In this document: positions 49,369 to 51,428 of the stretch, piece after piece
Position numbering within the stretch: position 1 is the first letter of the stretch
Layout: each line of letters opens with the position of its first letter
Source of the DNA: a virus
Reading direction: 5' to 3' (one strand)
Length of the DNA stretch: 64,000 nucleotides
IMG/VR virus record: IMGVR_UViG_3300020055_000012
Coordinates: 1-64,000 of that record
The notes under the pieces: generated by a model
The model's input: the letters and a program-made list of their open reading frames with translations, nothing else
Databases searched by the model: none
Told to the model about the DNA's origin: nothing
Made by a program: the position numbers and the translations under genes

Positions 49369-49491
49369 TTGCAACTTACAAGTACACATATCGCAAATTA
49401 TTGTTCCAATTCGAAAGTCTTTGGAAATACAACGATGAGTCATGATGATAATAAATCAGGATTTAAAAGGGTGTGCTATGATGTAAGTTAA
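49369..49491 (+). CDS. Putative attenuator leader peptide 2 (MQLTSTHIANYCSNSKVFGNTTMSHDDNKSGFKRVCYDVS)
   Basis: Read by hand with a TTG start. It is enriched in S, N, K, V, F, M, H and D, and is followed by a terminator. Confidence 0.7.
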   Translation: MQLTSTHIANYCSNSKVFGNTTMSHDDNKSGFKRVCYDVS

Positions 49492-49518
49492 GCGCATAAA
49501 ATAACTAAAGTTATACAC

Positions 49519-49550
49519 ACCCGAACAAGTAAAGTTGTTCGGGTTTTTTT
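49519..49550 (+). terminator. Attenuator terminator upstream of tRNA cluster 2
   Basis: ACCCGAACAA gtaaag TTGTTCGGGT TTTTTT. Confidence 0.85.
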
Positions 49551-49568
49551 ATGCTTAAAAATTGAAAA

Positions 49569-50087
49569 ATGGAATTTAAAGGAAAATATAAAGATTGGTA
49601 CGATAGATTAGTAAAAGCAAATTATGGAGCTAGGTACGGTAAAGAACAAAATGAAAGAATTGTAAAACTAGTAAAAATTTATATTGAGTGGGAAGAAGAA
49701 GAGTTTTGGAAAAATAAAAGAGAAAAGCTTGAAAAGGATATAAAAGATAAAGATAAGATTGATAAAATCTTAGAGTATGAAAGAAAAAGGTATAACGGTG
49801 AAGAGAGAGTAAAAGGTATCGAATGGACTAGAGAGAGAGATTTGGAATTGTTAAAAAAAGCAATTCAAAAACAAGAACTAGAAGATGGAGCTTGGTACGA
49901 TTGTGAAGAAGATGCAAAAAATGTTGCAAGATTTGGCGGAATAGTACAATGGAATGAAAAAAGACAACAGTTCCGAGCTCCAGGTCAACAACAATTTGGT
50001 GCAGATGGATATCTTGACCATTGGGCAGATGTTATAGATGAAGGATATGCAGGATTTGTTCCAATGTGGAAAGTGAAAAAAGAATGA
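49569..50087 (+). CDS. Hypothetical protein at the head of the cluster-2 operon
   Basis: ORF track. Confidence 0.55.
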   Translation: MEFKGKYKDWYDRLVKANYGARYGKEQNERIVKLVKIYIEWEEEEFWKNKREKLEKDIKDKDKIDKILEYERKRYNGEERVKGIEWTRERDLELLKKAIQKQELEDGAWYDCEEDAKNVARFGGIVQWNEKRQQFRAPGQQQFGADGYLDHWADVIDEGYAGFVPMWKVKKE

Positions 50088-50112
50088 AGTGTTATTTAAA
50101 ATATTAAAATAC

Positions 50113-50201
50113 GGAAAGTGAAGCAGCTCCATTGGAGGGGCGGGCAGTCTTGAAAACTGTAGGGCATTAAGTTGTCTGGGGGTCGGTTCCTCCGCTTTCC
50201 G
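50113..50201 (+). tRNA. tRNA-Ser(UGA), non-canonical (possible 8/4 fold)
   Basis: GGAAAGTG/CGCTTTCC acceptor, GCAGT-CTTGAAA-ACTGT arm, long variable arm, G73. Confidence 0.75.
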
Positions 50202-50221
50202 CTAAAATAAAACTAAGAGCT

Positions 50222-50434
50222 ATGACTAAAGTAAGAATAAATGAAATACCAGATGAAGAAAGATTAATTTTTTTAAAAAGAGTTAAAAGAGAAGATTTTG
50301 AAGAATTTTTTGATGACTATTATCATATCTTAGAACAGATGGCTATAAAAAAAGGATATACTAGTAATGAAATAAAATTTATAACAGAAGGAAAATATGT
50401 TAATGCTTATGTGTTAATAGATTTAATAATATAA
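50222..50434 (+). CDS. Small hypothetical protein between tRNAs
   Basis: ORF track. Confidence 0.45.
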   Translation: MTKVRINEIPDEERLIFLKRVKREDFEEFFDDYYHILEQMAIKKGYTSNEIKFITEGKYVNAYVLIDLII

Positions 50435-50436
50435 TT

Positions 50437-50519
50437 GGAGAAATGGCAGAGCGGTAATGCAGCACCCTGCTAAGGTGTACAACAGAAATGTTGCGAGAGT
50501 TCGAATCTCTCTTTCTCCG
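50437..50519 (+). tRNA. tRNA-Ser(GCU)
   Basis: GGAGAAA/TTTCTCC; GCACC-CTGCTAA-GGTGT; long variable arm. Confidence 0.9.
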
Positions 50520-50525
50520 CACTAT

Positions 50526-50598
50526 CTCCTCGTAGCTTACCAAGGGAAGCCTCTGACTTTTAATCAGAAGAGAATAGGTGCAAGTCCTATCGGGGAGA
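50526..50598 (+). tRNA. tRNA-Lys(UUU)
   Basis: CTCCTCG/CGGGGAG; TCTGA-CTTTTAA-TCAGA; atypical T loop TGCAAGT. Confidence 0.82.
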
Positions 50599-50599
50599 C

Positions 50600-50683
50600 A
50601 AATTACAAAAGTTCGAAAATAAATATGGTGTTTCAGATAATGCAGTTAGAAAATGGTGTAAAAAATATAATATTTTAAAATAA
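50600..50683 (+). pseudogene. Start-less HTH-encoding gene remnant (KYGVSDNAVRKWCKKYNI)
   Basis: An open frame without a start codon between tRNA-Lys and tRNA-His; HTH-like pattern. Confidence 0.45.
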
Positions 50684-50691
50684 TAATATAT

Positions 50692-50766
50692 GGTAGGAAT
50701 AGCTCAGTTGGTTAGAGCATCGATTTGTGGTGTCGAGGGTCGTGAGTTCGAATCTCATTTCCTACC
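50692..50766 (+). tRNA. tRNA-His(GUG)
   Basis: G-1, GTAGGAA/TTCCTAC acceptor, C73; TCGAT-TTGTGGT-GTCGA. Confidence 0.9.
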
Positions 50767-50773
50767 CAATTAT

Positions 50774-50849
50774 GGTACGTTGGTCTAGTATGGTCTAGGA
50801 TGTCTGCCTGTCACGCAGAAGGTCATGGGTTCAAATCCCATACGTACCG
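50774..50849 (+). tRNA. tRNA-Asp(GUC)
   Basis: GGTACGT/ACGTACC; TCTGC-CTGTCAC-GCAGA. Confidence 0.9.
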
Positions 50850-50854
50850 CAAAA

Positions 50855-50931
50855 GACTCAGTAGCTCAGTTGGTTAGAGCATCTGACTGTTAATCAGAAT
50901 GTCGCAGGTTCGAGCCCTGCCTGAGTCGCCA
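50855..50931 (+). tRNA. tRNA-Asn(GUU)
   Basis: GACTCAG/CTGAGTC followed by GCCA; TCTGA-CTGTTAA-TCAGA. Confidence 0.92.
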
Positions 50932-50932
50932 T

Positions 50933-51007
50933 AGGAGTATAGCTCAGTTGGTTAGAAGCGCTTGCCTTACATGCAAGATGTCGGGGGTTCGAATCCCTCT
51001 ACTCCTA
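50933..51007 (+). tRNA. tRNA-Val(UAC)
   Basis: AGGAGTA/TACTCCT; CTTGC-CTTACAT-GCAAG. Confidence 0.9.
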
Positions 51008-51012
51008 CAAAT

Positions 51013-51085
51013 GGGGATGTAGCTCAGTTGGTAGAGCAATGGACTGAAAATCCATGTGTCGATGGTTCGATTCCATCCATTCCCA
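51013..51085 (+). tRNA. tRNA-Phe(GAA)
   Basis: GGGGATG/CATTCCC; ATGGA-CTGAAAA-TCCAT. Confidence 0.92.
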
Positions 51086-51088
51086 CTA

Positions 51089-51180
51089 GTGATGCTATAT
51101 GTATGTGGTACAATGTCTGCCCCAGTTGTTTAAATCTGCGGTAAAGGAGCAGAGACCGATGGAGCCACACATAGCATTAC
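51089..51180 (+). ncRNA. Unidentified structured RNA inside tRNA cluster 2
   Basis: The ends pair (GTGATGCTAT...ATAGCATTAC and TGTGG/CCACA), with an internal TCTGC/GCAGA hairpin. It is GC-rich relative to the genome. Confidence 0.45.
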
Positions 51181-51185
51181 TTTAT

Positions 51186-51259
51186 TGCGATGTAGCTCAA
51201 TTGGTTAGAGCGCAGGAATCATAACCCTGAGGCTGGGAGTTCAACTCTCTCCATCGCAA
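51186..51259 (+). tRNA. tRNA-Met(CAU), elongator-like
   Basis: TGCGATG/CATCGCA acceptor; CAGG-AATCATAAC-CCTG arm. Confidence 0.75.
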
Positions 51260-51273
51260 CAGTGTAAAATATA

Positions 51274-51342
51274 TGCGGGGAATGGTGGTCCAATGAAAGT
51301 CTCATAAGCTTACTCTGGTCAGTTCGATTCTGGCCCCCGCTA
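51274..51342 (+). tRNA. Non-canonical tRNA(CAU), initiator-like, with a shortened D arm
   Basis: T1:T72 mismatch, GCGGGG/CCCCGC acceptor, CTCATAA loop, GTCAG-TTCGATT-CTGGC T arm. Confidence 0.6.
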
Positions 51343-51349
51343 CTAAAAT

Positions 51350-51428
51350 TGCGATAATGGTGTAAGGAAGGTCTCATGAGCCTTTTTGGGAGATATCCCC
51401 CTGTCAAGTTCGAATCTTGAAATCGCAA
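51350..51428 (+). tRNA. tRNA-like RNA (CAU) lacking a D stem, with a long variable hairpin
   Basis: TGCGAT/ATCGCA; AAGGT-CTCATGA-GCCTT; GGGA-GATA-TCCC; TCAAG-TTCGAAT-CTTGA. Confidence 0.5.

What the first reader, a model, noticed from the sequence alone, without database searches (positions are those of the whole stretch)
49369..51428. Attenuator 2: an eight-amino-acid sensor that also gates two protein genes
Codons 13-33 (SNSKVFGNTTMSHDDNKSGFK) have 17 of 21 residues from the set served by cluster 2, and all eight amino acids are present. GGGTGTG (49469-49475) is complementary to CACACCC (49516-49522), which overlaps the terminator 5' arm. Two unknown ORFs (49569, 50222) lie under the same control, so they are candidates for tRNA-repair or anti-defence factors induced by translation stress.
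Basis: partly seen in the sequence, partly recalled or inferred. Interest (0 to 1): 0.8.

Follow-up and report, generated by a model that had tools for sequence, protein, structure and literature searches.

The report
Codon-sensing switch before phage tRNA genes
In this uncultured giant phage a 40-codon test gene, written mostly in the eight amino acids carried by the tRNAs encoded downstream, sits in front of a switchable transcription stop. The phage therefore probably makes that tRNA block, and two unknown proteins tied to serine tRNAs, only when ribosomes read those codons slowly; I found no published case of this control acting on tRNA genes.

Summary

On its own the codon match is moderately significant (p about 1e-3). 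Relatives make the case strong:
- A DNA pattern for the terminator found this cassette in other viral contigs only in front of tRNA arrays.
- In 16 leader/array pairs of 7 types, the amino acids of the leader change with the array. The true pairing is the best of 5040 permutations, and the match holds only in the ORF's reading frame.
- All 14 members with this motif fold into the same trp-like set of alternative helices (1:2, 2:3, 3:4). The stop codon always lies between regions 2 and 3.

Both downstream ORFs are real, conserved genes. They form a module with tRNA-Ser genes, and no promoter motif separates them from the leader, so co-control is likely. Their function stays unknown: they have no family, no fold match and no complex verdict. 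"tRNA repair/anti-defence" is therefore untested.

I found no paper describing leader-peptide attenuation of tRNA genes. The nearest case, the Anabaena trn operon, uses a protein repressor. This scan has already reported the same system on many other phage genomes.

Verdict: a new variant of classical attenuation, of high interest.

The parts
49273..49350 (+). Conserved AT-rich upstream region with candidate promoter elements. These are -7-like boxes at 49307-49314 (TATATTCG; TATATTTG or TACATTTG in relatives) and 49335-49342.
   Evidence: Blocks are conserved in 5 relatives. The TAnnTTTG motif also lies upstream of the other leaders. The exact promoter and transcription start are not pinned down.
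49369..49491 (+). Leader ORF, 40 codons, TTG start, stop TAA at 49489-49491.
   Evidence: The ORF is kept open in all relatives, with 0 stops in frame against 23 and 54 in the other two frames. TTG is conserved in five type-2 leaders.
49370..49387 (+). Region 1 (anti-antiterminator arm). It pairs with 49471-49494; the core of the helix is 49383-49387.
   Evidence: Minimum-free-energy fold. The same 1:2 helix appears in the leader-only folds of 14/14 members.
49405..49467 (+). Sensor run, codons 13-33. 17 of 21 residues come from the eight amino acids of the array. 15 of 21 codons are read by the array's anticodons under strict wobble (hand count on the codon list).
49469..49475 (+). Region 2 (GGGTGTG). 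It pairs either with region 1 or with region 3.
49516..49522 (+). Region 3 (CACACCC). It overlaps the 5' arm of the terminator by 4 nt.
49519..49550 (+). Intrinsic terminator: 10-bp stem, 6-nt loop, then seven T.
   Evidence: Hairpin energy is -15.5 kcal/mol. A paralogous terminator lies at 54588-54617.
49569..50087 (+). ORF172, a conserved protein of unknown function: a helical part (residues 5-96) followed by a small beta domain.
   Evidence: 17 homologues; 19 in 1.84 billion representatives; AlphaFold2 pLDDT 79.5; no family or fold match.
50114..50204 (+). tRNA-Ser(UGA)-like gene with an aberrant D-arm region. It directly follows ORF172.
   Evidence: Rfam places it nearest tRNA-Sec at 30 bits, below threshold. 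Permissive ARAGORN calls it Ser-tga. Relatives have a canonical tRNA-Ser(UGA) at this spot.
50222..50434 (+). ORF70, a conserved small protein of unknown function (beta-alpha-alpha-beta-beta).
   Evidence: 46-89% identity in five lineages; pLDDT 81; no fold match.
50437..51260 (+). tRNA array: Ser-GCU, Lys-UUU, His, Asp, Asn, Val-UAC, Phe, a 100-nt structured spacer, then Met.
51270..51428 (+). Two tRNA-like elements with CAT anticodon loops and aberrant D-arms, at the end of the array.
   Evidence: The relative G004 has a canonical Met/Ile2-type tRNA at the first position.

Best explanation
This is a ribosome-mediated (leader-peptide) transcription attenuator that sets how much of tRNA cluster 2 is transcribed.

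A promoter in 49273-49350 starts a leader RNA. The RNA can fold in two ways. In one, region 1 (about 49370-49387) pairs with region 2 (GGGUGUG, 49469-75) and region 3/4 forms the terminator (49519-49550). In the other, region 2 pairs with region 3 (CACACCC, 49516-22) and the terminator cannot form.

The 40-codon leader is translated from TTG 49369. Its sensor codons (49405-49467) lie between regions 1 and 2, and its stop codon (49489) lies between regions 2 and 3. Three outcomes follow:
- If decoding is fast, the ribosome runs over region 2 and sits at the stop between regions 2 and 3. The 2:3 helix cannot form, the terminator forms and transcription ends.
- If no ribosome loads, the 1:2 helix forms and transcription also ends.
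- If the ribosome is slowed at any sensor codon because a charged tRNA for Ser, Lys, His, Asp, Asn, Val, Phe or Met is scarce, it wedges between regions 1 and 2. Region 2 is then free to capture region 3, and RNA polymerase reads through into ORF172, tRNA-Ser(UGA), ORF70 and the array.

The tRNAs made in this way then speed up leader translation and close the loop, so the device is a supply-on-demand homeostat.

What is shown: the sequence features, their conservation, the covariation of leader content with array content, the frame specificity and the predicted alternative folds. What is inferred: that the leader is translated, that stalling drives read-through, that the two ORFs are co-transcribed, and what the physiological trigger is (host tRNA decay or cleavage during infection).

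For the two proteins, my best guess (low confidence, about 0.2) is that they act with or on tRNA-Ser, because they travel with tRNA-Ser genes.
For: 1. The features are present and non-random.

2. Leaders against clusters within this genome give a diagonal matrix. Best-window -log10 P is 6.4, 3.3 and 4.9 on the diagonal and at most 2.9 off it.

3. A terminator pattern scan of viral contigs gave 12 true copies. All lie directly before tRNA arrays on the same strand. The 29 other terminator matches have neither GGGTGTG upstream nor tRNAs downstream.

4. Leader content tracks array content in relatives:
- A 15-residue run drawn entirely from {F,S,N,H,T,K} precedes a Phe/Ser/Asn/His/Thr/Lys array.
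- An 11-codon run whose codons CTA, AGA, CAA, TTA, GAA, CTT and ATA fit the anticodons precedes a Leu/Arg/Gln/Glu/Ile-UAU array.
- An AAG codon appears in the one leader whose array has Lys-CUU.
- A serine-rich leader precedes three tRNA-Ser genes.

5. Over seven array types the true pairing is the single best of 5040 permutations, at both amino-acid and codon level. Every amino acid of each array occurs in its own leader, which only 2 of 5040 permutations achieve.

6. The match holds only in the ORF frame: 62% in-set against 36% and 33%, with 0 stops against 23 and 54.

7. In 14/14 members region 2 pairs with region 1 in leader-only folds. It pairs with region 3 (-15 to -23 kcal/mol) when the 3' arm is absent. 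The terminator alone is -12 to -15.5 kcal/mol. The stop codon lies 13-27 nt after region 2 and 20-35 nt before region 3.

8. The 2:3 helix shows compensatory changes: G-C to A-U in L064, and U-A/C-G and U-A/A-U in the extension.

9. In relatives the first tRNA starts 13-30 nt after the run of T, which leaves no room for a separate promoter.

10. No TAnnTTTG motif lies between 49550 and 51450.

11. Close relatives differ from this leader mainly at the out-of-set positions (Thr21 to Ile, Gly31 to Arg), plus one in-set change before the sensor run (Ser5 to Asn in L063). The sensor codons that are in the set are kept.
Against: - There is no expression data. The RNA contigs found cover only tRNA parts, and none covers the leader.
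- This leader's own statistic is the weakest of the three (p about 1e-3).
- TCC and GTC are read by the array's tRNAs only if U34 reads all four codons of the box.
- The start is a TTG with no independent support. The first in-frame ATG (49435) would leave half of the sensor untranslated.
- The 2:3 helix here has only 7 contiguous pairs.
- Within type 2, leader-array covariation is only a trend. Relatives that lack Val and Phe tRNAs still keep one Phe codon, and one keeps a Val codon.
- The promoter is not pinned down. Absence of a consensus motif does not exclude an internal promoter; one search lists weak sigma-70-like sites at 50073 and 50298.
Confidence: 0.8

Rival explanations
1. The switch is the same but the signal is different. 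The leader reports general slowing of translation or amino-acid starvation, or it acts as a timer of infection, and does not report the supply of these particular tRNAs.
For: A stalled ribosome cannot tell a missing tRNA from an uncharged one. The leader also holds Gly, Thr and other codons outside the array. The Anabaena tRNA array is induced by general translational stress.
Against: A general sensor has no need to match each array. The leaders differ between the three arrays of one genome and change with array content across phages. Making more tRNA would not relieve amino-acid starvation.
Confidence: 0.1
2. The leader RNA is an untranslated riboswitch-like element. Its terminator/antiterminator choice is set by a protein or by direct tRNA binding (T-box-like), and the ORF is incidental.
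For: The alternative helices exist without reference to the ORF. The start is a TTG, and no ribosome-binding signal was tested.
Against: The ORF is open in all 16 leaders, while the other frames carry 23 and 54 stops. The amino-acid match is frame-specific. The start and stop positions relative to regions 1-3 are conserved. No T-box or any other Rfam cis-regulatory family matched at E up to 1.
Confidence: 0.05
3. The ORF is an ordinary small gene with its own terminator, which simply insulates the array. The array and the two ORFs are driven by an unrecognised promoter, or by constitutive leak through the terminator.
For: The promoter is not mapped. Weak sigma-70-like matches exist inside the operon. 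A promoter-like box does sit inside cluster 1, at 47869.
Against: In relatives the first tRNA follows the run of T by 13-30 nt. This reading does not explain why the peptide composition follows the array, nor why a conserved antiterminator overlaps the terminator.
Confidence: 0.04
4. It is a chance resemblance in AT-rich DNA.
For: The eight-amino-acid set makes up 43% of the proteome, so moderate matches are common.
Confidence: 0.01

Closest known systems
Multivalent leader-peptide attenuators of amino-acid operons (thr leader: Thr+Ile; ilvGMEDA leader: Ile/Leu/Val; also trp, his, leu, phe). From my own knowledge of the Yanofsky model.
   Same: A short translated leader rich in the codons to be sensed. 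Mutually exclusive 1:2, 2:3 and 3:4 helices. An intrinsic terminator as the default state. Read-through when the ribosome stalls.
   Different: The regulated products are tRNAs (plus two small proteins), not biosynthetic enzymes. Eight specificities are sensed here and up to eleven in relatives, mostly by one to three codons each. The sensor lies between regions 1 and 2, not inside region 1. The stop codon lies between regions 2 and 3. No Rfam leader family matches.
pheST (pheM leader) and other translation-apparatus genes under leader-peptide attenuation (own knowledge)
   Same: A component of the translation machinery is made on demand through ribosome stalling at cognate codons.
   Different: There a synthetase is regulated and one amino acid is sensed. 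Here the tRNA genes themselves are regulated and the product feeds back directly on the sensor.
T-box riboswitches
   Same: The state of tRNAs decides between terminator and antiterminator upstream of translation-related genes.
   Different: A T-box binds one uncharged tRNA directly and has no ORF. Here no T-box motif is found, and a conserved, frame-specific ORF is present.
Anabaena sp. PCC 7120 trn operon (long tRNA array) repressed by TrcR (PMC8421152, PMC10272220)
   Same: An accessory tRNA array that is silent by default and induced when translation is impaired.
   Different: Control is by a ribbon-helix-helix repressor that binds direct repeats over the -10 box. The paper uses neither 'attenuat-', 'leader peptide' nor 'terminator'.

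Membership tests
Leader-peptide (ribosome-mediated) transcription attenuators | Short ORF inside the 5' leader, ending shortly before an intrinsic terminator | tested here: met
   ORF 49369-49491; terminator 49519-49550. The same layout is found in 16 relatives.
Leader-peptide (ribosome-mediated) transcription attenuators | Leader enriched in codons whose decoding reports the regulated pathway | tested here: met
   17/21 residues in-set and 8/8 coverage, p about 1e-3. Family-wide permutation gives 1/5040. The match is frame-specific.
Leader-peptide (ribosome-mediated) transcription attenuators | Antiterminator helix that excludes the terminator, plus an upstream partner (1:2) that excludes the antiterminator | tested here: met
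   Folds (14/14 members). Compensatory changes in the 2:3 helix. The motif pair is non-random. All of this rests on predicted structures only.
Leader-peptide (ribosome-mediated) transcription attenuators | Read-through depends on leader translation and on the supply of charged tRNA | not testable with these tools
   This needs reporter, Term-seq or ribosome-profiling experiments. RNA contigs gave nothing for the leader.
Leader-peptide (ribosome-mediated) transcription attenuators | Regulated genes are amino-acid biosynthesis or aminoacyl-tRNA synthetase genes (all described members) | tested here: not met
   The downstream genes are tRNAs and two proteins without a family. For this reason I file it as a new variant and not as a member of a described leader family.
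Rfam leader families (His, Leu, Thr, Trp leaders) and T-box | Match to the curated covariance model | tested here: not met
   cmscan of 47000-56500 at E up to 1 lists only tRNA-related hits and chance hits.
TrcR-type repressed tRNA arrays (Anabaena) | Tandem 9-nt direct repeats over the -10 box and transcription start, bound by a ribbon-helix-helix repressor | not tested
   I made no search for such repeats or for a TrcR homologue. The mechanism comes from the papers read.

The most novel reading that the evidence does not exclude
Attenuator 2 is a counter-defence sensor. When host nucleases that target tRNAs (for example anticodon nucleases acting on Lys, or on His/Asp/Asn) or host shut-off deplete these tRNAs, the stalled leader switches on the replacement tRNAs. 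It also switches on a previously unknown two-protein module (ORF172 and ORF70) dedicated to tRNA-Ser, which could protect, mature or charge the phage's unusual tRNA-Ser.
Probability: 0.15. Interest if true: 0.9.

Novelty: new variant of a known kind. Interest (0 to 1): 0.8.

Why it matters
Why phages carry tRNA genes, and when they use them, has been debated for decades. Current explanations are codon compensation, replacement of decaying host tRNAs, and escape from tRNA-cleaving defences (for example PMC10264068, PMC11464382 and PMC11555353, seen in the listing).

A built-in sensor written in the very codons the array serves would show that giant phages measure decoding speed codon by codon and make tRNAs on demand. 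It would extend the classical attenuation model to genes for the translation machinery itself, and to sensors of eight or more specificities.

It would also give a compact natural part that reports the supply of chosen tRNAs in vivo. Finally, it marks ORF172 and ORF70 as candidates for tRNA-Ser-linked functions that are co-induced with the array.

Tried and rejected
- A search of the phage record collection with 48800-51500 found only generic tRNA similarity and no close relative.
I used the search for related loci in its place.
- ORF172 and ORF70 have no Pfam or PHROG family.
- Foldseek against PDB and BFVD gave nothing at E below 0.09. VIA-align wide gave only generic helical matches at Z of 6 or less.
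- Weak rows for seryl-tRNA synthetase coiled coils, for KOW/NusG-like small barrels in the Atlas (TM below 0.4) and for YqeY in two distant homologues (16 bits against a cut-off of 27) are too weak to use.
- Complex prediction of ORF172 with ORF70 gave no verdict.
- Sequencing runs: the phage DNA is present in salt-marsh and seawater metagenomes. Three metatranscriptomes hold only small shares. The laid contigs cover tRNA parts, many of them from other organisms. Exact pieces cover 51065-51278 and 51163-51313. One contig of a relative bridges the 3' end of ORF172 and tRNA-Ser. Nothing covers the leader, so this gives no evidence on termination or read-through.
- The Bacteroidota-type -7 motif could not fix the promoter. 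Three -7-like boxes are conserved upstream.
- Four of the six literature searches looked for attenuation or leader-peptide control of phage or viral tRNA genes and found nothing. The fifth fetched the Anabaena papers, which describe control by a repressor. The sixth listed recent phage-tRNA papers.
- I did not build a covariance model, because the pattern scans already separated true copies from chance terminators cleanly.
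Full report
WHAT THE WINDOW IS. The window is the first 64 kb of a 79.4-kb IMG/VR virus record. It has 30% G+C and is estimated to be 24% complete, so it is a fragment of a jumbo phage. Its DNA occurs in salt-marsh and seawater metagenomes. Promoter-like boxes of the Bacteroidota type (TAnnTTTG) lie upstream of the leaders, which suggests a host from that phylum. There are three plus-strand tRNA clusters: 47757-48287, 50114-51428 and 54630-55435.

THE OBSERVATION.
- The ORF 49369-49491 has 40 codons.
- Codons 13-33 hold 17 of 21 residues from {S,K,H,D,N,V,F,M}, with all eight represented.
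- GGGTGTG (49469-75) is the exact complement of CACACCC (49516-22).
- CACACCC overlaps the terminator stem (49519-49544, followed by seven T).

The array after it carries Ser-UGA (aberrant), Ser-GCU, Lys-UUU, His, Asp, Asn, Val-UAC, Phe and Met, plus two tRNA-like elements with CAT loops. "Eight amino acids" is therefore right. At codon level, 15 of the 21 sensor codons are read by the array's anticodons under strict wobble. The count is 17 if the U34 tRNAs read whole codon boxes (hand count on the codon list).

IS IT MORE THAN CHANCE? The eight-residue set makes up 43% of the phage proteome, so this leader alone is only moderately significant. The window score together with full coverage is reached by 0.12% of random peptides, and by no other of 462 small ORFs in the genome. 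The case becomes strong in context.
- The three leaders scored against the three clusters give a diagonal matrix: 6.4, 3.3 and 4.9 on the diagonal and at most 2.9 off it.
- The GGGTGTG...CACACCC pair occurs exactly twice in 64 kb, in leaders 2 and 3, and in no shuffle.
- Leaders 2 and 3 are paralogous cassettes. They share region 1, region 2, region 3, the terminator and the first bases after the run of T, but their sensor codons differ.

RELATIVES. A scan of viral contigs for the terminator pattern returned six loci, all directly upstream of tRNA arrays on the same strand. A looser pattern returned 41 loci. The 12 that are true copies of the cassette all have a tRNA array downstream, and 11 of them also carry an exact GGGTGTG upstream; the twelfth, L038, has the variant GGTGTG (L038 region 2 read). 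The 29 others have neither feature. Further members came from whole-record searches and from loci found through ORF172 homologues. One host record is a complete 518,809-bp genome with terminal repeats. It has three such cassettes.

The leaders change with their arrays:
- A Phe/Ser/Asn/His/Thr/Lys array is preceded by a 15-residue run made only of those six amino acids.
- A Leu/Arg/Gln/Glu/Ile-UAU array is preceded by a run whose codons (CTA, AGA, CAA, TTA, GAA, CTT, ATA) fit the individual anticodons.
- A Gly/Met/Val/Trp/Tyr/Pro/Ile/Asp/Ala/Thr array is preceded by a 20-residue run drawn from those amino acids, apart from one Cys.
- The one cluster-3-type array that also has Lys-CUU has an AAG codon in its leader.
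- A leader rich in Ser codons precedes three tRNA-Ser genes.

With one representative for each of seven array types, the true pairing of leader and array is the single best of 5040 permutations, at both amino-acid and codon level. Every amino acid of each array is present in its own leader, which only 2 of 5040 permutations achieve. The match exists only in the ORF frame: 62% in-set against 36% and 33%. The ORF frame has no stops, against 23 and 54 in the other frames.

RNA ARCHITECTURE. The leader folds better than shuffled sequence (z = -4.0), with a long 1:2 helix and the terminator. In all 14 family members that carry the GGUGUG-type region 2:
- Region 2 pairs with a region 1 about 15 nt after the start codon in leader-only folds.
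- Region 2 pairs with region 3 (-15 to -23 kcal/mol) when the terminator's 3' arm is not yet made.
- The terminator hairpin alone is -12 to -15.5 kcal/mol.
- The stop codon lies 13-27 nt after region 2 and 20-35 nt before region 3.

The 2:3 helix has a 7-bp core that is paired in 13-14 of 14 members. It shows compensatory changes: G-C to A-U in L064, and U-A/C-G and U-A/A-U in the extension.

The geometry differs a little from the trp leader. Here the sensor lies between regions 1 and 2, and the stop between regions 2 and 3. A slow ribosome therefore wedges 1 and 2 apart and frees region 2 for region 3. A fast ribosome ends up between 2 and 3 and blocks the antiterminator. This mechanism is inferred from the anatomy and has not been shown.

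START CODON. In every other member an ATG lies about 15 nt before region 1. TTG occupies that place in all five type-2 leaders (this phage, G004, L063, G005 and L064). Codons 13-18, which would be untranslated from the alternative ATG at 49435, are all in-set.

THE TWO PROTEIN GENES. ORF172 (49569-50087) has 17 homologues and only 19 relatives among 1.84 billion representatives. ORF70 (50222-50434) is conserved at 46-89% identity in five lineages. Both are therefore real genes.

They travel together with tRNA-Ser genes. ORF172 is followed within 15-40 nt by tRNA-Ser(UGA) in five of the six lineages for which downstream sequence is held. ORF70 lies just after one to three tRNA-Ser genes. In one relative (L067) this module has its own serine-rich leader and terminator. 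In this phage and its near relatives the module sits between the terminator and the rest of the array. More distant relatives have the first tRNA 13-30 nt after the terminator.

No TAnnTTTG box lies between 49550 and 51450. Co-transcription from the leader promoter is thus likely but unproven.

Function is unknown. There is no Pfam or PHROG family. The AlphaFold2 models are confident (pLDDT 79.5 and 81) but have no significant fold match. The "repair/anti-defence" idea is therefore untested. The only positive lead is the tie to tRNA-Ser.

WEAK POINTS.
- There is no expression evidence.
- The promoter is not pinned down.
- The start is a TTG.
- Four sensor positions (Gly, Thr) and codons 2-12 lie outside the set.
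- Within type 2 the covariation with loss of the Val and Phe tRNAs is only a trend. In close relatives, though, the changes fall mainly at the out-of-set positions (Thr to Ile, Gly to Arg), plus one in-set change before the sensor run (Ser5 to Asn in L063).

COMPARISON WITH WHAT IS KNOWN. The logic is that of classical leader-peptide attenuation, closest to the multivalent thr and ilv leaders (my own knowledge). It is not a member of any described leader family or of the T-box family, and its targets are tRNA genes. Four full-text searches found no account of such control for phage or cellular tRNA genes. The nearest functional analogue is the stress-induced tRNA array of Anabaena, which is controlled by the TrcR repressor at the promoter.

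Within this scan the same phenomenon has already been reported and followed up on many other phage genomes, with the same reading. The sibling notes on this genome describe attenuators 1 and 3 and the paralogy of 2 and 3. I re-derived these points independently here.

VERDICT. The attenuator interpretation is supported at about 0.8. Co-control of the two ORFs is likely. Their proposed function is unsupported. This is a new variant of a known kind of regulation, of high interest.

Noticed in passing
window 47926-48209: tRNA-Arg(UCU) interrupted by a 207-nt intron after anticodon base 34. It is found only by permissive ARAGORN. No Rfam group I or other intron family matched at E up to 1.
   Followed up: partly
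window 47869-47876: A TATATTTG promoter-like box lies between tRNA-Ile(UAU) and the intron-bearing tRNA-Arg in cluster 1. The surrounding 50 nt are 70% identical to the promoter region of leader 3 (repeat D16). Arg and Met of cluster 1 may therefore also be transcribed independently of attenuator 1.
   Followed up: no
window 50114-50204: The tRNA-Ser(UGA) of this phage and of L063 has a rebuilt D-arm region and a possible 8-bp acceptor stem. Its best Rfam match is tRNA-Sec at 30 bits, below threshold. Relatives (G005, L064, L066, L067) have a canonical tRNA-Ser at this position.
   Followed up: partly
window 50600-50680: A 27-codon open stretch between tRNA-Lys and tRNA-His reads like the C-terminal helix-turn-helix of a DNA-binding protein (HTH_28, E 0.026, below cut-off). 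It may be a relic of a homing endonuclease inside the array.
   Followed up: partly
window 51087-51185: A 100-nt spacer between tRNA-Phe and tRNA-Met folds into a long hairpin (-29 kcal/mol). G004 has a gap of the same length (about 100 nt) between its tRNA-Phe and tRNA-Met; its sequence was not compared. An exact metatranscriptome contig covers 51065-51278. It belongs to no Rfam family.
   Followed up: partly
window 51270-51345 and 51350-51428: Two tRNA-like elements with CAT anticodon loops and aberrant D-arms close the array. The first is a remodelled copy of a canonical CAT tRNA seen in G004. The second has a long extra arm, is identical in G000, G004 and L063, and is absent from G005 and L064.
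   Followed up: partly
L052 828-990, L054 1030-1178, L055 306-512 (record G001): A complete 518,809-bp phage genome with terminal repeats has three leader/terminator cassettes in front of its three large tRNA arrays. The Leu/Arg/Gln/Glu/Ile leader matches its array at the level of individual anticodons.
   Followed up: partly
L067 70-330: A serine-rich leader plus terminator precedes an ORF172-like gene, three tRNA-Ser genes and an ORF70-like gene. Here the protein/tRNA-Ser module is a separate attenuator-controlled unit.
   Followed up: partly
window 48836-48850: A TATATTTG box ends only 4 nt before the ATG of the 130-codon ORF at 48848, which suggests a leaderless or nearly leaderless mRNA.
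   Followed up: no
window 49545-49560, 54612-54626 and relatives: The bases just after the terminator's run of T (ATGCTTAAA) are conserved between attenuators 2 and 3 and in several relatives. No role is known for them.
   Followed up: no
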